From assembly GCF_030013595.1 (NCBI RefSeq), contig NZ_CP122768.1: DNA of 64,000 nucleotides. One strand, 5' to 3'. Made by a program: the position numbers and the translations under genes. Below are positions 1 through 11,541 of this stretch, one piece after another (positions within the stretch are counted from its first letter, which is position 1; each line of letters begins with the position of its first letter). The notes beneath the pieces were generated by a model. That model saw nothing but the letters and a program-made list of their open reading frames with translations. It was not told where the DNA came from and made no database searches. The DNA is from Escherichia coli. GTDB lineage: Bacteria > Pseudomonadota > Gammaproteobacteria > Enterobacterales > Enterobacteriaceae.

Positions 1-293
1 TTAACTGGGCTTTTCTCTATCTGCCGTTGGTGTTCATGCCCGAGGCAGATAGCCTCAAGCACACGCAGCAATTTTACTTAACTATTTTTCCGAAAAATTA
101 ATTATTACTAATGCATAGTTTATAAATCACACGATGATATTATAAATCTAGTGTAAGGGAACATTTAAGTTAAGAATCACATTTTACTAGCCAAAAACAT
201 AAAACAGATCTCTTAATAATAAGCAGCTTTTATATAAAAACCACGATGTGTTTTCATAATAATATGCAGTACCAGCTACTCAGCAATATGAGG

Positions 294-812
294 TTATTCA
301 GTCAAGCTTTTGCGCCCGTACGCACTTCTCAAACTTGCACATGTTTCTCTAATCCTAACAATTTGCATACAATCAGGTCTTAGAGGTCGGTTGTGAACAT
401 CACTATCATATGTCATGGCTTGGCGTAATTCCTTAAACAATTTTGCCTTATATTTTTCACCACCGGCCCTTTCAATTTCTTTAGCGATAGTAGTTAAACT
501 CTTAACCTCCCTACTCATTTTTGCTAACGCCAGTGTAGGTTCTTTATTATTATCTTCAGCCCAGAACTCTAAGGCAAAATCCTCAAGCAACTCCAGTTTT
601 TGTCTAAACTCACCGATCCATTCATTATGAGCATCTTTAATAGCATCTCCTCTACTTTTTGTGGTTTGGAGATAAGCAATATATGCCGTAATCCCCCATC
701 CAACTAAAACTAAAAACCAAGTTACATACTGATTTTCATCTTTAAACAAAGAAAAAAACTTACACCAAAAGTCTGCACTCCAAGTACAGACCTGGATACT
801 TGAATTAGCCAT
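294..812 (-). CDS. hypothetical single-pass membrane protein; third gene of AT-rich cargo operon
   Basis: 172-aa ORF; hydrophobic stretch VTWFLVLVGWGITAYIAYL near the N-terminus then a charged helical tail; start ATG overlaps the stop of the upstream gene (8-nt overlap); AT-rich. Confidence 0.55.
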   Translation of the reverse strand: MANSSIQVCTWSADFWCKFFSLFKDENQYVTWFLVLVGWGITAYIAYLQTTKSRGDAIKDAHNEWIGEFRQKLELLEDFALEFWAEDNNKEPTLALAKMSREVKSLTTIAKEIERAGGEKYKAKLFKELRQAMTYDSDVHNRPLRPDCMQIVRIRETCASLRSAYGRKSLTE

Positions 813-1120: not shown

Positions 1121-2287
1121 CTACTCAGTTTCCACCTCACAAGGAATTGTCCATTCAATTATAGTACCATTAACAGAGCTTTTGTAATCTCTAAGCACTT
1201 CGTTAATAATGCCAGTTTTCCCTTTGTAAATATAGCGCCCTTTTGATGAAAAAATCCCCATAAAACCATCACCTATTGAATCGATTACCGATTTGATATC
1301 ATTCAAGCCTTTACCTCGGTTCAGCTCCCCAGTCCTCGTTTCCTGAAGTAACGTGGAAGCCTTTATATAAGTAGAATCCTTTACATTTGCTAATGGAACT
1401 CTAAGTTTTTTGAAGATGTTCATTAGCACACTTACACCTTGTGTTTTAGGCAATGTTGAAGGTATTCCCACTCCTTTATCACATATTACCACTGTAAGAT
1501 TTTTGTCATGTATGCCAGCAAAGGTCCACCACTTAGCTGTTTCGTCATCTTCCGTATGCATTAAATCATCAACATAAGCATGCTCGACAGAATTAGACAT
1601 GGCCTCAGTAAAGCCACGGTATAATTTTTTTGATGATTTTCTTTCTAACTCTTTTTTTATTTCCACCATCATTTCTTTTGCTAAAAGAGGCTCAGAACAA
1701 GAACCTGATGTATATTTCCAAAAAGTCACATCATCATAACTTTCAGTTTCTCTTTTAGGTTTCCTTAATAGATCATAGAAACCGACTTGATTCAAAATGC
1801 TTTCAATTTTCTTGTCTTTCGGATGTGAAAACCCTATGGCATTTACTCCAAATTCACTTTTCTTAATAAGCACATCAACTTCAGCGAGAAAAGATAACAT
1901 AGCAGCTGCACTTATATATTTAGTTGAAGAAAAATCTATATAAACACGATTATTCTTCAACACGCAATCGCGTAAATTATTTAAAAATTTATTCATGATT
2001 TCAAAATCACGATCGTTGTAATAATTAATAGATATCGGAGCAGAAAAAACCACCCTTTTATTACTTGTTGTCAACTTTTTCTTCGAGACTCGTAGCTTAC
2101 GAGTGCGTTTGTAATATTCCAGTTTTCTCTTCGCATTTTCTACTCCTTCCCAATCCGTGCTTTTCAGAGAATTAAATATCCCCCTCTTCAGTTTCGAAAC
2201 TTGCCCGCGATAGTTTAGTTTTTGAACTTTTCTTCTTTTTTGCAGATTCATAAATATTTTCACATTTGATAACATCGCAGATATCAT
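1121..2287 (-). CDS. GHKL/HATPase_c-type ATPase (anti-sigma-factor-kinase-like) with basic N-terminus and a STAS-like middle region; first gene of cargo operon
   Basis: 388-aa ORF; Bergerat-fold motifs read from translation: N-box-like EAMSNSVEHAY, G1-like VVICDKGVGIP, G2-like NRGKGLNDIK, then GT motif; middle region RVYIDFSSTKYISAAAMLSFLAEVDVL resembles STAS; AT-rich. Confidence 0.65.
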   Translation of the reverse strand: MISAMLSNVKIFMNLQKRRKVQKLNYRGQVSKLKRGIFNSLKSTDWEGVENAKRKLEYYKRTRKLRVSKKKLTTSNKRVVFSAPISINYYNDRDFEIMNKFLNNLRDCVLKNNRVYIDFSSTKYISAAAMLSFLAEVDVLIKKSEFGVNAIGFSHPKDKKIESILNQVGFYDLLRKPKRETESYDDVTFWKYTSGSCSEPLLAKEMMVEIKKELERKSSKKLYRGFTEAMSNSVEHAYVDDLMHTEDDETAKWWTFAGIHDKNLTVVICDKGVGIPSTLPKTQGVSVLMNIFKKLRVPLANVKDSTYIKASTLLQETRTGELNRGKGLNDIKSVIDSIGDGFMGIFSSKGRYIYKGKTGIINEVLRDYKSSVNGTIIEWTIPCEVETE

Positions 2288-6727: not shown

Positions 6728-6916
6728 TCCCCTCTGCACCCTCACCTTTCTTTTTTATCAAAAAAAACACTAAAAATTTCATTACGATAGTACATTTTTA
6801 TCAATAAAATGCATATTTGTGTTGATCACTTATATGAATATAACTAATATTATTGCAGAAGCAGCACGGCGCTGTAGGTTTTAGTTCCGCCACCCGGCGT
6901 TAAAGGGAGAGATAAA

Positions 6917-7051
6917 ATGGTGCATTACGAAGTAGTTCAGTATTTGATGGATTGTTACGGCATCACTTACAGCCAGGCTGTACAGGCTCTACGCAGCAAC
7001 GACTGGGATCTCTGGCAGGCAGAAGCCTCTATCCGCAACAACAAGATGTGA
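6917..7051 (+). CDS. ydaG: Rac prophage small protein YdaG
   Basis: 44-aa ORF MVHYEVVQYLMDCYGITYSQAVQALRSNDWDLWQAEASIRNNKM, near-identical to remembered K-12 YdaG; GGGAGAG Shine-Dalgarno. Confidence 0.7.
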   Translation: MVHYEVVQYLMDCYGITYSQAVQALRSNDWDLWQAEASIRNNKM

Positions 7052-7062
7052 GGGTTTCCAAA

Positions 7063-7215
7063 ATGCAAAAAATCGACCTCGGCAACAACGAATCCCTAGT
7101 GTGTGGCGTGTTCCCCAACCAGGATGGAACGTTCACCGCCATGACTTATACCAAAAGCAAGACATTCAAAACTGAAACGGGCGCACGTCGCTGGCTTGCC
7201 AGAAATACTTGCTGA
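7063..7215 (+). CDS. ydaF: Rac prophage small protein YdaF
   Basis: 50-aa ORF MQKIDLGNNESLVCGVFPNQDGTFTAMTYTKSKTFKTE..., matches remembered YdaF. Confidence 0.7.
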   Translation: MQKIDLGNNESLVCGVFPNQDGTFTAMTYTKSKTFKTETGARRWLARNTC

Positions 7216-7462
7216 TCCATTATTTGGATTAATTCAATATTCTCGCTGTAGGGGTATAGCCGAGGCCACCAAAGCCCGGAGGTGGTGAAATAAAACCGGG
7301 CGCAACACGAAGGCGCATTTCCGATATCCATAAAGAGTCGGTTTTGTCTGTTAAATTTAAATGGTGGGAGTGCTCCTCCGGTTGTAAATAACGACATTGC
7401 TGTGTGTAGTCTTGGCGGCATCAGTTTTTTCTTGAAGTTCGGCTGATGTCCGCCCTTTTTAA

Positions 7463-7630
7463 AGTGAATTTTGTGATGCGGTGAATGCGGCTCAGCGCAC
7501 GCGGAACAGTTAAAAAAGTGATCGGTACTCTGTATTTGTTTTATGGAGTTGGTTTCCCTGTATTCCGGCGTTAATTGTTAACTGGTTAACGTCACCTGGA
7601 GGCACCAGGCACCGCATCACAAAATTCACT
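7463..7630. repeat. 21-bp perfect inverted repeat (AGTGAATTTTGTGATGCGGTG at 7463..7483, reverse complement at 7610..7630) flanking a 126-bp spacer in a non-coding gap
   Basis: Read directly from sequence. Confidence 0.85.
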
Positions 7631-7652
7631 TAGTAACCAAGAAGAGAATTAT

Positions 7653-7925
7653 ATGCAAGAGATAAGTTTTGAAATAACAGCAAAAGATGTACAGGTTAAG
7701 CCCGATTACAATCAAAAATTATGTATTGAAGTCAATGGCGTGAAGTTATCAGACCTGATTGATTCAGTTGAAGATAACGACGCTATTATTGAAATGGTTG
7801 GAGCCGAAGAAATAGCAGAATACTTTTCAACAGAGGGGCGTCTTCATGAGCTTCTGGAAAAATTTTCATATCAGGATATCGCTACATTTCTGGAAATTAA
7901 TGGTTATAAAGTTACCGAGGAATAA
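7653..7925 (+). CDS. hypothetical small strongly acidic protein (prophage early-region gene)
   Basis: 90-aa ORF; about 21 Asp/Glu versus about 8 basic residues by my count; not recognisable as kilR or sieB. Confidence 0.5.
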   Translation: MQEISFEITAKDVQVKPDYNQKLCIEVNGVKLSDLIDSVEDNDAIIEMVGAEEIAEYFSTEGRLHELLEKFSYQDIATFLEINGYKVTEE

Positions 7926-7943
7926 AGTAGCTCAGGTGGCGTT

Positions 7944-8153
7944 ATGGAACGTAATCATCTAACAGCTATCAGTGCCGCACAGAGTAAATTCGCCATCGCT
8001 GTATTTTTACAGGATGAAGAAATGTTTGAGCAGGCCATTATTCAGTTTGCAATTGCGACCGGGAGTAAAATAAATGAACACTTTGTTCGCTCTTGTCATG
8101 ACCGTTTTTCTGACATCAGGCGAAACTCAGGATGTTGTTACCGGAATTTATAA
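7944..8153 (+). CDS. hypothetical small protein (uncertain; overlaps next ORF in another frame)
   Basis: 69-aa ORF with AGGTGG Shine-Dalgarno 6 nt upstream; overlaps 8074..8310 by 80 nt. Confidence 0.3.
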   Translation: MERNHLTAISAAQSKFAIAVFLQDEEMFEQAIIQFAIATGSKINEHFVRSCHDRFSDIRRNSGCCYRNL

Positions 8154-8310
8154 CTCCGAATCTGAATGCAAGGCCGCAGCTATTGAGCAAAAAGTAGCTG
8201 GTGAATGTTTCCCTGTTGAGAAATTTATCCGGCCTGTAGATGAAGAAATTCCCGCAGGCCTCACAGGAGAAAATCATGAAAATAAAATGTGGTTACCACC
8301 TTTGCAATAA
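8074..8310 (+). CDS. hypothetical small protein with hydrophobic N-terminus (kilR-position gene, identity not confirmed)
   Basis: 78-aa ORF with GGGAG Shine-Dalgarno; N-terminal MNTLFALVMTVFLTSG is signal-peptide or TM-like. Confidence 0.4.
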   Translation: MNTLFALVMTVFLTSGETQDVVTGIYNSESECKAAAIEQKVAGECFPVEKFIRPVDEEIPAGLTGENHENKMWLPPLQ

Positions 8311-8440
8311 AGACGTTGAAGAAAGCAAAACCATTAAAAGACCACTTCATTTCATGCGTGGAGTTATCCCAACGACGGAAATGAAAAAATATTGTAGTGA
8401 AAATTGTGCCGAAAAAGACCAGATGGCACACGAACTTTAA
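8276..8440 (+). CDS. ydaE: Rac prophage small Cys-rich protein YdaE
   Basis: 54-aa ORF MKIKCGYHLCNKDVEESKTIKRPLHFMRGVIPTTEMKKYCSENCAEKDQMAHEL with AGGAGAAAA Shine-Dalgarno. Confidence 0.7.
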   Translation: MKIKCGYHLCNKDVEESKTIKRPLHFMRGVIPTTEMKKYCSENCAEKDQMAHEL

Positions 8441-8514
8441 TTAACTGACTATTCGAAACTGAATTTATGCCAGAAATGGCAGGGATTCGCTCAACCTTAA
8501 TTAAGGAGAAAAAC

Positions 8515-8790
8515 ATGATTACCAATTATGAAACCACTGTTGTAACTACCGATGACATTGTTCACGAGGTGAATCTGGAAGGAAAGCGCATTGGCTACGT
8601 AATTAAAACAGAAAATAAAGAAACCCCATTCACTGTGGTTGATATCGATGGTCCATCAGGCAACGTAAAAACACTTGATGAAGGTGTCACAAAAATGAGC
8701 CTGGTTCACATCGGAAAGAATCTGCCCGCAGAAAAAAAAGCCGGATTTCTGGCAACTCTGATCGCAATGAAATTAAACGGTGAAATCTGA
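8515..8790 (+). CDS. racC: Rac prophage protein RacC
   Basis: 91 aa from MITNYETTVV...; matches remembered RacC. Confidence 0.8.
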   Translation: MITNYETTVVTTDDIVHEVNLEGKRIGYVIKTENKETPFTVVDIDGPSGNVKTLDEGVTKMSLVHIGKNLPAEKKAGFLATLIAMKLNGEI

Positions 8791-8889
8791 AAAAAAGAAA
8801 GCCTGCACTGTGTGCAGGCCTGAGTGAAGAACCTGGGACATTTATTCATCACTCGCAGTAATTTTAATCTGAGTTGAGGTTAAAAAACA

Positions 8890-11541
8890 ATGAGCACAAA
8901 ACCACTCTTCCTTTTACGGAAAGCGAAAAAATCATCCGGTGAGCCTGACGTCGTCCTGTGGGCAAGCGACGATTTTGAATCAACCTGTGCCACTCTGGAC
9001 TACCTGATCGTTAAGTCAGGTAAAAAACTGAGCAACTATTTTAAAGCTATTGCAACTAATTTTCCTGTCGTTAATGACCTGCCCCCTGAAGGTGAGATCG
9101 ATTTTACCTGGAGTGAACGCTATCAACTCAGCAAAGACTCCATGACATGGGAACTAAAACCGGGAGCAGCGCCAGACGACGTTCACCACCAGGATAATGC
9201 TCAAGAAACCAACGAACTGGCGGGAGGCCAGGAAGAAAACGCGCAGGCAGACGCCCACGAGGATTGCCAGGATTGCGAAGTCTCTGTAGCCACTTTGCGG
9301 TTCACACAGCGTCTTCTGCACATTTTTACGTATGCAGCCGGGGATCGGAAATACCTGCATCATGCCACCCGTGAACAACGCAAACACATTACTGCTCTTG
9401 AGATGGATCAGGAAAACAGCTATGTCCAGAATCTGCTGTTGGCCATACGCAGCATGGCAGAACCGACAACTCTGGATAATGCCGCCCTGCTCCGCCTGAC
9501 TGATGCAATTAAGGCAGTGTTCTCTATCACGAAAAAACATCAGCCCTATGAATTTAAGAATTTCATTTCAGCCTGGCTGGATACCGAACACATTGATCGC
9601 GGTCTTCTGACAAAAGAATGGCGAAAAGGAAATCGTGTTTCACGCATCACGCGCACGGCTTCCGGCGCTAATGCTGGCGGCGGAAACCTCACCGATCGCG
9701 GCGAAGGTTTCGTTCACGATCTGACGTCACTGGCGCGCGACGTAGCCACTGGCGTACTGGCTCGTTCAATGGACGTGGACATTTATAACCTTCATCCGGC
9801 ACACGCTAAACGTGTCGAGGAAATTATCGCTGAAAATAAACCACCCTTTTCTGTTTTCCGCGACAAATTCATCACCATGCCTGGTGGGCTGGATTATTCC
9901 CGCGCCATCGTGGTTGCGTCCGTAAAAGAAGCACCAATTGGGATCGAGGTTATCCCCGCACACGTCACCGAATATCTTAACAAAGTACTGACTGAAACTG
10001 ATCATGCCAACCCTGATCCAGAAATCGTGGATATTGCCTGCGGTCGTTCCTCTGCCCCGATGCCGCAGCGTGTAACAGAAGAAGAAAAACAGGATGATGA
10101 AGAAAAACTGCAACCATCTTGCGCAATGGCAGATGAACAGGCAACGGCTGAAACAGTGGAACCGGATGCAACTGAACATCATCAGGACACGCAGTCGCTG
10201 GATGCTCAGTCACAGGTAAATTCTGTTGATGCGAAATATCAGAAACTGCGGGCAGAACTCCATGAAGCCCGGAAAAACATTCCGCCCAAAAATCCTGTCG
10301 ATGCAGACAAATTACTGGCTGCCTCTCGCGGAGAATTTGTTGAAGGGATTAGCGACCCGAATGATCCGAAATGGGTTAAGGGGATCCAGACCCGCGATTC
10401 TGTGTACCAGAACCAGCCAGAAACGGAAAAAACCAGCCCGGATGTGAAACAACCTGAGCCAGTAGTGCAACAGGAACCGGAAATAGTCTGCAATGCCTGC
10501 GGTCAGACTGGCGGGGATAACTGCCCTGACTGTGGTGCAGTGATGGGCGACGCAACATACCAGGAAACATTCGGTGAAGAGAATCAGGTTGAAGCTAAGG
10601 AAAAAGATCCGGAGGAAATGGAAGGCGCTGAACATCCGCACAATGAGAATGCTGGCAGCGATCCGCATCGCGATTGCAGTGATGAAACTGGCGAAGTCGC
10701 AGATCCCGTAATCGTAGAAGACATAGAGCCAGGTATTTATTACGGAATTTCGAATGAGAATTACCACGCGGGTCCCGGTGTCAGTAAGTCTCAGCTCGAT
10801 GACATTGCTGATACTCCGGCACTGTATTTGTGGCGTAAAAATGCCCCCGTGGACACTACAAAGACAAAAACGCTCGATTTAGGAACCGCTTTCCACTGCC
10901 GGGTACTTGAACCGGAAGAATTCAGTAACCGCTTTATCGTAGCACCTGAATTTAACCGCCGTACAAACGCCGGAAAAGAAGAAGAGAAAGCGTTTCTGAT
11001 GGAATGCGCAAGCACAGGAAAAACGGTTATCACTGCGGAAGAAGGCCGGAAAATTGAACTCATGTATCAAAGCGTTATGGCTTTGCCGCTGGGGCAATGG
11101 CTTGTTGAAAGCGCCGGACACGCTGAATCATCAATTTACTGGGAAGATCCGGAAACAGGAATTTTGTGTCGGTGCCGTCCGGACAAAATTATTCCTGAAT
11201 TTCACTGGATCATGGACGTGAAAACCACAGCGGATATTCAACGATTCAAAACGACTTATTACGACTACCGCTATCACGTTCAGGATGCATTCTACAGTGA
11301 CGGTTATGAAGCACAGTTTGGTGTGCAGCCAACTTTCGTTTTTCTGGTTGCCAGCACAACTGTTGAATGCGGACGTTATCCGGTTGAGATTTTCATGATG
11401 GGCGAAGAAGCAAAACTGGCAGGCCAGCAGGAATATCACCGCAATCTGCGGACCCTGGCTGACTGCCTAAATACCGATGAATGGCCAGCTATTAAGACGT
11501 TATCACTGCCCCGCTGGGCTAAGGAGTATGCAAATGACTAA
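8890..11541 (+). CDS. recE: exodeoxyribonuclease VIII (RecE), full length
   Basis: 883-aa ORF; N- and C-terminal regions match remembered K-12 RecE ([22 protein letters not shown]... and ...[13 protein letters not shown]); Cys cluster [16 protein letters not shown]. Confidence 0.9.

What the first reader, a model, noticed from the sequence alone, without database searches (positions are those of the whole stretch)
7944..8310. Two overlapping small ORFs in different frames upstream of ydaE
ORF 7944..8153 (69 aa, AGGTGG Shine-Dalgarno) and ORF 8074..8310 (78 aa, GGGAG Shine-Dalgarno, hydrophobic N-terminus) overlap by 80 nt in different frames, and the second also overlaps the ydaE start. Both having good ribosome-binding sites is unusual. 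Either the genes are genuinely overlapped, or the first is a frameshifted remnant. The second sits where kilR lies in K-12 Rac, but I cannot confirm identity.
Basis: partly seen in the sequence, partly recalled or inferred. Interest (0 to 1): 0.35.

Follow-up and report, generated by a model that had tools for sequence, protein, structure and literature searches.

The report
Overlapping kil and ydfD prophage genes
The two overlapping small ORFs are both real, already-named prophage genes: a lambda-type Kil cell-division inhibitor, followed by a YdfD-family lysis protein whose start lies inside the end of kil. The finding is largely ordinary, apart from Kil taking the place that DicB normally holds upstream of ydfD.

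Summary
ORF1 (7944..8153, 69 aa) and ORF2 (8074..8310, 78 aa) overlap by 80 nt in different frames, each with its own Shine-Dalgarno. ORF2 also overlaps ydaE by 35 nt.

Neither ORF is KilR. ORF1 is a lambda-type Kil (Pfam Lambda_Kil, above threshold). The newest RefSeq annotation names it kil. ORF2 is a DUF1482/YdfD protein, 51% identical over all 63 residues to the characterised K-12 Qin lysis protein YdfD.

The kil/ydfD overlap (71-86 nt, same relative frame) recurs in Escherichia, Citrobacter, Klebsiella and Enterobacter prophages.

- **Kil core:** residues 1-43, the helix-turn-helix, show coding selection in the kil frame.
- **Kil tail:** residues 44-69, inside the overlap, change at the rate of ydfD's silent sites. 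Synonymous recoding of ydfD leaves that frame open as long as observed in 22-69% of trials. The tail is therefore a passive read-through, not dual coding.
- **ydfD/ydaE overlap:** this comes from a lineage-specific loss of the ydfD stop codon (ACA where relatives have TAA).

Across 80 viral contigs, ydfD follows DicB in 55 and Kil in 19. This suggests a recurring pairing of a division inhibitor with a lysis gene. Interest is modest.

The parts
7934..7939 (+). Shine-Dalgarno (AGGTGG) of kil, 4 nt before the ATG
   Evidence: read directly from the sequence
7944..8153 (+). kil: long-tailed lambda-type Kil, 69 aa (WP_000440741.1 in RefSeq)
   Evidence: Pfam Lambda_Kil E 8e-8, 32.1 bits against a cut-off of 27.6, aa 10-32. 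PHROG 3924 'Kil protein for bacterial septation inhibition'. Annotated as kil in NZ_CM135183.1. Homologues of 65-71 aa at 55-80% identity.
7944..8072 (+). Kil core, aa 1-43: predicted helix-turn-helix. This is the only part of kil under its own coding selection.
   Evidence: Diversity by kil codon position 0.17/0.09/0.45 and amino-acid identity 84%. AlphaFold2 helices 3-22 and 25-39, pLDDT 86-90. Aligns with the lambda Kil helix-turn-helix core.
8061..8065 (+). Shine-Dalgarno (GGGAG) of the ydfD-like gene, inside kil codons 40-41, 8 nt before the ATG
   Evidence: read directly from the sequence. An AAGG/GGAG element lies at the same place in all relatives, and no conserved RNA structure surrounds it.
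8074..8153 (+). 80-nt kil/ydfD overlap: Kil tail (aa 44-69) read in frame -1 of ydfD codons 1-27
   Evidence: Substitution pattern follows the ydfD frame (0.18/0.16/0.45). Kil first positions vary at 0.45 against 0.17 in the core, p = 5e-5. Tail identity is 45%. Recoding test. Low-confidence structure.
8074..8310 (+). ydfD-like gene (DUF1482 family, 78 aa, WP_001093898.1)
   Evidence: Pfam DUF1482 E 1e-20. 51% identity over all 63 aa of K-12 YdfD, E 2e-23. PHROG 1092. Conserved Cys32 and Cys45. AlphaFold2 compact beta-beta-alpha-beta fold over aa 5-47, pLDDT 85-93.
8263..8310 (+). C-terminal extension of the ydfD-like protein (15 aa plus stop). Codon 8263-8265 is ACA where Citrobacter-type relatives have the stop TAA.
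   Evidence: DNA comparison with L015, L013 and L022. Other family members end at ...IPAG(L/Y/A) after 55-64 aa. The extension is predicted disordered, pLDDT below 50.
8276..8440 (+). ydaE (54 aa, zinc-binding YdaE family). Its first 35 nt overlap the ydfD extension.
   Evidence: NCBIfam YdaE_coli E 2e-25. 74% identical to K-12 YdaE. RefSeq annotation.

Best explanation
The region holds two functional genes of the early-left operon of a Rac/Qin-type lambdoid prophage.

**The two genes.** The first, kil, encodes a lambda-type Kil peptide. Its 43-residue helix-turn-helix core is the active part and, by homology, blocks FtsZ-ring assembly. The second encodes a YdfD-family protein. In K-12, YdfD causes lysis of dividing cells by inhibiting IspG.

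**How the overlap works.** The ydfD-like gene is translated from its own Shine-Dalgarno and ATG, which lie inside the last part of kil. Ribosomes translating kil do not meet a stop near that ATG, so they run on in the -1 frame of ydfD until the first stop that ydfD's codons happen to provide, 26 codons later here. The Kil tail is therefore an unconstrained read-through appendage. The region is not coded for two selected proteins.

**The second overlap.** The overlap of ydfD with ydaE has a different origin. In this E. coli lineage the usual ydfD stop is replaced by a sense codon, which adds 15 disordered residues.

**Inferred function.** Kil plays the part that DicB plays in Qin. It arrests division and so holds back YdfD-dependent lysis when the operon is derepressed.

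**Shown and inferred.** Shown here: gene identities, conservation of the arrangement, and the selection pattern. Inferred: co-transcription, FtsZ inhibition, lysis activity, and the brake relationship.
For: **Identity.**

**Conservation of the pair.** The same pair, in the same relative frame (+1) with 71-86 nt overlap, occurs in Klebsiella, Enterobacter, Citrobacter and metagenomic prophages at 55-80% protein identity.

**Selection pattern.**
- Kil core diversity by codon position is 0.17/0.09/0.45.
- The overlap follows the ydfD frame at 0.18/0.16/0.45.
- Kil first-position diversity rises from 0.17 in the core to 0.45 in the tail (p = 5e-5).
- Amino-acid identity is 84% for the core, 45% for the tail and 73% for the ydfD N-terminus.

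**Tail length needs no selection.** Synonymous recoding of ydfD keeps the kil frame open at least as long as observed in 22-69% of trials.

**Structure and experiment.** AlphaFold2 gives a confident helix-turn-helix and a low-confidence tail. In lambda Kil the helix-turn-helix core spans residues 4-38, and the C-terminal 11 residues can be deleted with activity reduced but not lost (PMC11762379).

**Overlap is a family habit.** Lambda kil overlaps gam by 46 nt and cIII by 32 nt. ST64T kil overlaps both of its neighbours.

**Pairing with a division inhibitor.** In 80 viral contigs with a ydfD-like gene, the gene immediately upstream is DicB in 55 and Kil in 19. In K-12, dicB and ydfD overlap by 4 nt. 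YdfD lysis is prevented by DicB or SulA (PMC8835842).

**Stop loss.**

**Transcription.** No terminator-like site on the + strand between 6900 and 8950.
Against: - No expression data exist for either gene in this strain.
- Most RefSeq annotations of the identical DNA leave kil unannotated, and NCBIfam has no model that hits either protein.
- A weak constraint on the tail cannot be excluded. Silent-site diversity of ydfD is somewhat lower inside the overlap (0.45) than after it (0.56, one-sided p = 0.10).
- The kil-equivalent frame is open for 23-28 codons in kil-associated ydfD genes but only 13-19 in DicB-associated ones.
- The codon for Gly16 is never GGT, which would create a stop, in the kil-associated set.
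- The 16 sequences used are phylogenetically related, so the p-values are rough.
- The C-terminal extension may inactivate the YdfD-like protein. In K-12, removing or changing the last residue already abolishes toxicity. If so, the brake/lysis relationship would be moot in this particular prophage.
Confidence: 0.8

Rival explanations
1. True dual coding. The Kil tail (aa 44-69) is a functional domain, and the 80-nt overlap is maintained by selection on both reading frames.
For: The long overlap and the 65-71 aa length are conserved across four genera. The kil frame stays open longer in kil-associated ydfD genes (23-28 codons) than in DicB-associated ones (13-19). Stop-creating GGT is absent at Gly16. 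ydfD silent sites are about 19% less diverse inside the overlap (p = 0.10). AlphaFold2 draws a helix at 45-62, though at pLDDT around 60.
Against: - Kil first codon positions in the tail vary as fast as silent sites (0.45), and tail identity is only 45%.
- Radical changes such as Arg to Cys follow silent changes in ydfD.
- The observed open length is expected from ydfD's protein sequence alone in 22-69% of recodings.
- Locus L040, which has DicB and no kil upstream, still has the frame open for 37 codons.
- L107 and L106 have Kil-type peptides that stop at the ydfD start.
- The lambda Kil C-terminus is dispensable.
Confidence: 0.12
2. ORF1 is a decaying, frameshifted remnant of a short kil gene and is no longer functional. 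Only the ydfD-like gene matters.
For: Most RefSeq annotations skip it. Its tail is unconstrained. Short-Kil relatives with a normal junction differ by a 2-nt change in the spacer before the ydfD ATG.
Against: The core shows a strong coding signature (second-position diversity 0.09 against third-position 0.45) over sequences as low as 55% identical. The start codon, Shine-Dalgarno and length are all conserved. In L013 it is ydfD, not kil, that carries a nonsense codon. A C-terminal appendage on lambda Kil's dispensable end would not be expected to kill function.
Confidence: 0.05
3. The overlap is regulatory. Translation of kil through the ydfD start site sets the Kil:YdfD ratio, by occlusion or by coupling, so that division is blocked before the lysis protein accumulates.
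For: The ydfD ribosome-binding site lies inside kil in every long-type locus. The pairing of ydfD with a division inhibitor is very frequent. In K-12 the inhibitor prevents YdfD lysis.
Against: No conserved RNA structure sequesters the ydfD start (consensus energy -2.2 kcal/mol). Other members of the same pairing use 1-nt, 4-nt or 13-nt overlaps or a 2-nt gap, so a long overlap is not required for the pairing. Nothing here measures translation.
Confidence: 0.25
4. ORF2 is the Rac KilR equivalent.
For: It occupies the same position, immediately upstream of ydaE, as kilR in K-12 Rac.
Against: BLASTP finds no alignment to KilR even at E up to 100. ORF2 is a full-length DUF1482/YdfD match.
Confidence: 0.01

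Closest known systems
dicB-ydfD pair of the Qin cryptic prophage of E. coli K-12 (part of the dicF-dicB-ydfD-ydfE operon)
   Same: A small division-inhibitor gene sits immediately upstream of, and overlaps, a DUF1482/YdfD lysis gene in the early-left operon, followed by a RecE-type exonuclease gene. The window even keeps the Qin-type dicF and dicB-leader DNA upstream.
   Different: The inhibitor here is Kil (helix-turn-helix peptide; FtsZ/ZipA in lambda), which is unrelated to DicB (acts through MinC). The overlap is 80 nt in the other relative frame, not 4 nt (ATGA). The YdfD homologue is 78 aa rather than 63 aa because its stop is lost.
kil of bacteriophage lambda (47 aa) and of P22-like phages (37 aa)
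   Same: Same Pfam family and same predicted helix-turn-helix core. Same operon position next to the recombination genes. Lambda kil also overlaps its downstream neighbour gam by 46 nt.
   Different: Only 35-48% identity, confined to the core. This version has an extra conserved AIATGxK segment and a 26-residue tail. It lacks the C-terminal RSK/RSSK motif reported for nearly all lambda Kil homologues. The downstream partner is ydfD, not gam. Only 3 clusters at 50% identity out of 1.84 billion representatives match the full long form.
kilR-ydaE of the Rac prophage of E. coli K-12
   Same: Same slot in the same operon: between ydaF/ydaG and ydaE-racC-recE-recT. YdaE is 74% identical. KilR is also an FtsZ-directed division inhibitor.
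   Different: KilR shares no detectable sequence with either ORF. Rac has one gene in this slot, whereas this prophage has three (orf90, kil, ydfD-like). Only 16 of 5426 complete E. coli genomes carry this module.

Membership tests
Lambda Kil (Pfam PF06301) | Sequence match to the family profile above the curated threshold | tested here: met
   32.1 bits against a cut-off of 27.6, E 8e-8, aa 10-32. PHROG 3924, E 3e-6.
Lambda Kil (Pfam PF06301) | Helix-turn-helix core with a two-residue turn (G-D in lambda) | tested here: met
   AlphaFold2 helices 3-22 and 25-39 at pLDDT 86-90, with the turn at Q23-D24 (G-D or G-N in relatives). Lambda core as described in PMC11762379.
Lambda Kil (Pfam PF06301) | C-terminal RSK/RSSK motif, reported in nearly all lambda Kil homologues | tested here: not met
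   There is no RSK or RSSK. The nearest are G-S-K at aa 40-42 and R-S-C at 49-51. This is a reported regularity, not a formal family criterion.
Lambda Kil (Pfam PF06301) | Encoded in the early-left operon beside the recombination genes | tested here: met
   Lies between the repressor region and ydaE-racC-recE-recT. Compare lambda cIII-kil-gam-bet-exo.
Lambda Kil (Pfam PF06301) | ZipA-dependent disruption of FtsZ rings, with filamentation on expression | not testable with these tools
   Needs induction and microscopy. Known for lambda and HK629 Kil only.
YdfD / DUF1482 (Pfam PF07358) | Full-length sequence match to the family and to the characterised K-12 YdfD | tested here: met
   73.6 bits against a cut-off of 25. 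32 of 63 residues identical with no gaps, E 2e-23. K-12 YdfD itself scores 91 bits on DUF1482.
YdfD / DUF1482 (Pfam PF07358) | Two conserved cysteines | tested here: met
   C32 and C45 are invariant in the alignment. Lu et al. describe two conserved cysteines.
YdfD / DUF1482 (Pfam PF07358) | About 63 residues ending ...IPAG(L), with an intact C-terminal residue needed for lysis in K-12 | tested here: not met
   The window protein is 78 aa. ACA replaces the stop found in relatives. The K-12 deltaC1 and L63A mutants lose toxicity. Membership by sequence stands, but activity of this allele is uncertain.
YdfD / DUF1482 (Pfam PF07358) | Gene lies directly downstream of a cell-division inhibitor gene | tested here: met
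   Kil here. DicB in 55 and Kil in 19 of 80 viral-contig loci.
YdfD / DUF1482 (Pfam PF07358) | Binds IspG and lyses dividing cells | not testable with these tools
   Shown experimentally only for K-12 YdfD (PMC8835842).
KilR (Rac prophage) | Sequence similarity to K-12 KilR | tested here: not met
   No BLASTP alignment at E up to 100 for either ORF.
Dual-coding (overprinted) gene pair under selection in both frames | Reduced change at the silent sites of one frame because they are constrained by the other | tested here: inconclusive
   ydfD third-position diversity is 0.45 in the overlap against 0.56 outside it, p = 0.10. Kil tail first positions vary like silent sites. The recoding test shows no need for selection. 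The sample is small (16 sequences, 21-22 sites per class).

The most novel reading that the evidence does not exclude
ydfD-type lysis genes have recruited two unrelated division inhibitors, DicB and Kil, into the same immediately upstream, overlapping position. There may also be a third, unnamed 66-aa partner, seen in L083, L098, L104 and L109. On this reading, division inhibitor plus YdfD is a selected two-gene module in which the inhibitor acts as the brake on division-dependent lysis. In the Kil version, the long read-through across the ydfD start tunes the ratio of the two proteins.
Probability: 0.3. Interest if true: 0.5.

Novelty: new member of a known kind. Interest (0 to 1): 0.28.

Why it matters
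**Annotation.** Identical DNA is annotated with kil in two complete genomes and without it in fourteen others. The DUF1482 label hides the link to the characterised lysis protein YdfD.

**Biology.**
- This Rac-like prophage fills the kilR slot with a different division inhibitor plus a lysis-gene homologue.
- It sits behind a DicF-like small RNA, so the operon stacks several anti-division functions.
- ydfD almost always follows a division inhibitor, and the inhibitor can be DicB or Kil. This supports the published idea that YdfD action is tied to cell division, and it offers a second natural pair in which to test that idea.

**Method.** The analysis is a worked example that a long, conserved overlap with two good ribosome-binding sites need not mean dual coding.

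Tried and rejected
- **KilR identity for either ORF.** Rejected.
- **Signal peptide or membrane anchor as the reading of ORF2's hydrophobic N-terminus.** AlphaFold2 instead puts residues 5-12 and 18-26 in a beta-hairpin of a compact, confident fold. This is a prediction only.
- **Foldseek of the ORF2 model against the PDB.** Nothing significant; best E 0.74.
- **RNA structure hiding the ydfD start.** None conserved.
- **Internal promoter or terminator between the genes.** The scans gave fewer promoter-like hits than shuffled sequence and no + strand terminator in 6900-8950.
- **Close relatives among 50,697 deposited phage genomes.** For ORF1 there are only weak core matches to P22-like Kil (E 2-4). 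ORF2 matches at 40-57% identity, in genes annotated ydfD next to dicB.
- **NCBIfam.** No model for either ORF.
- **Literature.** No paper holds 'DUF1482', and no relevant paper holds both ydfD and Kil.
- **Scan of one genome per species (genome contigs).** Confirmed only one locus, in Citrobacter braakii, because confirmation used the first sequence only.
- **Selection for keeping the kil frame open.** Tested by recoding and not needed.
- **Programmed frameshift making a Kil-YdfD fusion.** Considered but not pursued. The ydfD frame has a stop (TAA, 8071-8073) directly before its ATG, and no slippery motif was evident by eye.

Full report
**1. Observation**

- ORF1: ATG 7944 to TAA 8153, 69 aa. 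AGGTGG lies at 7934-7939.
- ORF2: ATG 8074 to TAA 8310, 78 aa. GGGAG lies at 8061-8065.
- ORF2 is in frame +1 relative to ORF1, and the overlap is 80 nt.
- ydaE begins at 8276, so ORF2 also overlaps ydaE by 35 nt.

The window is identical over 7600-8900 to E. coli ETEC1734 (NZ_CP122801.1). Its surroundings are those of a Rac/Qin-type lambdoid prophage. In order they are: ydaT and a cro-like gene on the minus strand; then on the plus strand a repressor-like HTH gene, ydaF, orf90 (7653..7925), the two ORFs, ydaE, a racC-like gene, recE and recT.

**2. Identity of ORF1**

- It matches Pfam Lambda_Kil above the curated threshold (32.1 against 27.6 bits, aa 10-32).
- It matches three PHROG families named 'Kil protein for bacterial septation inhibition'.
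- NCBI's pipeline calls the same 210-nt ORF 'kil: host cell division inhibitory peptide Kil' (WP_000440741.1) in two of the sixteen complete genomes that carry the identical DNA. One of them is shown in detail. The other fourteen leave the interval empty.
- Aligned with lambda Kil (47 aa) and ST64T Kil (37 aa), it shares the core Q-(S/T)-K-F-x-I-A...D...M...A.
- AlphaFold2 on an alignment of 17 homologues gives two helices, 3-22 and 25-39, at pLDDT 86-90. This is the helix-turn-helix that Naha et al. found essential in lambda Kil (core residues 4-38, PMC11762379). The region after residue 44 is of low confidence.
- It has no similarity to K-12 KilR.

**3. Identity of ORF2**

- It is a full-length DUF1482 protein (73.6 bits; PHROG 1092).
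- tblastn against deposited phages found its relatives annotated as 'YdfD family protein', next to 'cell division inhibition protein DicB'.
- Direct comparison with K-12 Qin YdfD gives 32 of 63 identities without gaps, E 2e-23. K-12 YdfD itself is a DUF1482 protein.
- YdfD is experimentally characterised. Its expression lyses E. coli, and the lysis is prevented by co-expressing DicB or SulA. It binds IspG. Even single-residue changes at either end reduce toxicity (PMC8835842).
- The two cysteines that paper notes are invariant here, as C32 and C45.
- AlphaFold2 predicts a compact beta-beta-alpha-beta fold for residues 5-47 (pLDDT 85-93) and disorder from residue 52. The PDB holds no significant match.
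- ORF2 has no similarity to KilR.

**4. The overlap is conserved**

Protein searches found 18 clusters of long Kil proteins (65-71 aa, 55-80% identity) from Escherichia, Klebsiella, Enterobacter and metagenomes.

A ydfD-like gene starts inside the end of kil, in the same relative frame, in every locus I fetched. These are three Klebsiella oxytoca assemblies, two Enterobacter assemblies, Citrobacter braakii, and 17 IMG/VR contigs. The overlap is 71, 80, 83 or 86 nt.

In one metagenomic contig (L013) the ydfD-like gene carries a nonsense codon at position 17 while kil stays intact.

The module is rare in E. coli. It is present in 16 of 5426 complete genomes, mostly swine ETEC, and all 16 are 99.7-100% identical over the two genes. 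For the other roughly 1800 genomes that match the window, homology begins at query position 679, which is window 8278, the start of ydaE. The kil-ydfD block is therefore a mosaic insert in the slot where K-12 Rac has kilR.

**5. Is the overlap dual coding?**

I aligned 16 distinct DNA sequences from the kil start to the ydfD end and measured diversity by codon position.

| Region | Frame | Diversity at positions 1/2/3 |
|---|---|---|
| kil core, upstream of the overlap | kil | 0.17 / 0.09 / 0.45 |
| overlap | ydfD | 0.18 / 0.16 / 0.45 |
| ydfD after the overlap | ydfD | 0.26 / 0.19 / 0.56 |

- The core pattern is the signature of a translated, selected gene.
- Inside the overlap the signature switches entirely to the ydfD frame. 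The first positions of the Kil tail codons therefore vary at 0.45, against 0.17 in the core (Mann-Whitney p = 5e-5). The 'silent' third positions of the tail are the most conserved, because they are ydfD second positions.
- Amino-acid identity is 84% for the Kil core, 45% for the tail and 73% for the ydfD N-terminus.
- ydfD silent sites are slightly less diverse inside the overlap than after it (0.45 against 0.56, one-sided p = 0.10). A weak constraint cannot be excluded.

I then asked whether the frame needs selection to stay open. I recoded each ydfD with synonymous codons drawn from the window's own codon usage. The kil frame stays open at least as long as observed in 22-69% of trials.

Only one or two codon pairs in ydfD's first 27 codons can make a stop in that frame, and kil ends at the next such opportunity.

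Locus L040 is a natural control. DicB, not Kil, precedes a ydfD of the kil-associated clade, yet the frame is still open for 37 codons.

Two points lean the other way. DicB-associated ydfD genes close that frame after 13-19 codons. The stop-creating GGT at Gly16 is common there but absent from the kil-associated set. With so few independent changes this is not significant.

My reading is that the Kil tail is a passive read-through. This fits the finding that lambda Kil tolerates loss of its C-terminal 11 residues.

**6. How the long overlap may have arisen**

Two loci have Kil-type peptides that end at the ydfD start with ordinary coupling junctions.
- L107 has TGATG, a 1-nt overlap. Its peptide hits Pfam Lambda_Kil at E 1.5e-9.
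- L106 has TTGA, a 4-nt overlap with a TTG start. Its peptide is divergent.

The spacer between the conserved A-T-G codons of kil and the ydfD ATG is 8 nt in L107, 10 nt in the window, and 13 nt in the Klebsiella and Enterobacter types. The long form therefore differs from the short form by a change of frame in this spacer, which removes the local stop. Which state is ancestral cannot be told from these data.

Overlap with neighbours is usual for kil:
- lambda kil overlaps cIII by 32 nt and gam by 46 nt;
- ST64T kil overlaps its neighbours by 8 and 16 nt.

**7. The second overlap (ydfD with ydaE)**

Family members end at ...IPAG(L/Y/A) after 55-64 residues.

In the Citrobacter-type relatives, the stop TAA is followed at once by GGAG and the ydaE ATG. 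In the window the codon at that place is ACA (8263-8265). Translation therefore continues through the ydaE ribosome-binding site and start to TAA at 8308-8310, adding 15 residues that are predicted to be disordered.

K-12 YdfD loses toxicity when its last residue is removed or changed. This allele may therefore be attenuated. That is inference only.

**8. The wider pattern**

Eighty IMG/VR loci with a ydfD-like gene were fetched. Many are near-identical E. coli prophages. HMM classification of the gene ending at the ydfD start gave the following:

| Upstream gene | Loci | Junction |
|---|---|---|
| DicB | 55 | 4-nt or 13-nt overlap, or a 2-nt gap |
| Kil | 19 | 71-113 nt in 18 loci, 1 nt in one |
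| neither | 6 | see below |

Counting distinct sequences gives roughly 25 DicB-type and 13 Kil-type. Of the six in the last row:
- one (L106) is the divergent Kil-like peptide;
- four share an unnamed 66-aa ORF with no Pfam match;
- one has an HNH-like insertion.

So ydfD nearly always sits directly behind a small division-inhibitor gene, and the inhibitor can belong to unrelated families. With the K-12 result that DicB or SulA prevents YdfD lysis, this makes it likely that Kil serves here as the brake on YdfD-type lysis. That step is inferred.

I found no paper that mentions DUF1482, and none that links Kil with YdfD.

**9. Expression context**

- No terminator-like site lies on the plus strand between 6900 and 8950, and no convincing internal promoter was found. 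Co-transcription from the early-left promoter is therefore likely, though not shown.
- There is no conserved RNA structure around the ydfD start.

**10. Verdict**

- Both ORFs are members of known families, and the newest RefSeq annotation already names them.
- The overlap is genuine and conserved, but it is a one-sided overlap rather than dual coding.
- The modestly new points are the long-tailed Kil subfamily and the replacement of DicB by Kil upstream of ydfD. Only 3 clusters at 50% identity among 1.84 billion representatives match the long form over its full length.

Noticed in passing
window 7401..7455 (+): A DicF-like small RNA. It gives a full-length match to Rfam RF00039 at 41.1 bits, E 1e-6, below the gathering score of 48. 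Against K-12 dicF, the terminator half is conserved and the 5' half diverges. The operon would thus carry an anti-ftsZ RNA as well as Kil.
   Followed up: partly
window 7457..7656 (+), including 7562..7627: Nearly identical to the K-12 Qin leader between dicF and dicB. Similarity ends just before the dicB ATG. Rfam STnc100 matches at 34.6 bits, below its threshold. PGAP annotates 7562..7627 as a partial dicB pseudogene. It looks as if dicB was replaced here by orf90 plus kil.
   Followed up: partly
window 7653..7925 (+): A 90-aa ORF directly upstream of kil. It matches PHROG 7311 (unknown function, E 9e-18) and has only a sub-threshold Pfam hit (DUF5983_N). Function unknown.
   Followed up: no
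L083, L098, L104, L109 (about 1300..1503 in each locus): In these viral contigs the ydfD-like gene is preceded, with a 1-4 nt overlap, by a conserved 66-aa ORF (MK.NH.IPN.GRAV.MRNQRTG.AW.VSFDYRE..YWHEPQGNLRNIRRPY...LVPAGTH) that has no Pfam match. It could be a third kind of partner for ydfD.
   Followed up: partly
L013 about 285..335: A metagenome-assembled relative has a TAA nonsense codon at ydfD codon 17 while the overlapping kil frame stays open. It could be a real pseudogene or an assembly error.
   Followed up: no
L040 1310..1700: A mosaic in which a DicB-type gene precedes a ydfD of the kil-associated clade (76% identical to the window's), followed by ydaE. This shows recombination right at the ydfD start.
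   Followed up: partly
window 8515..8790 (+): A racC-like gene (91 aa) matches NCBIfam PRK09790 over its full length (E 5e-59), but the family has no known function.
   Followed up: no
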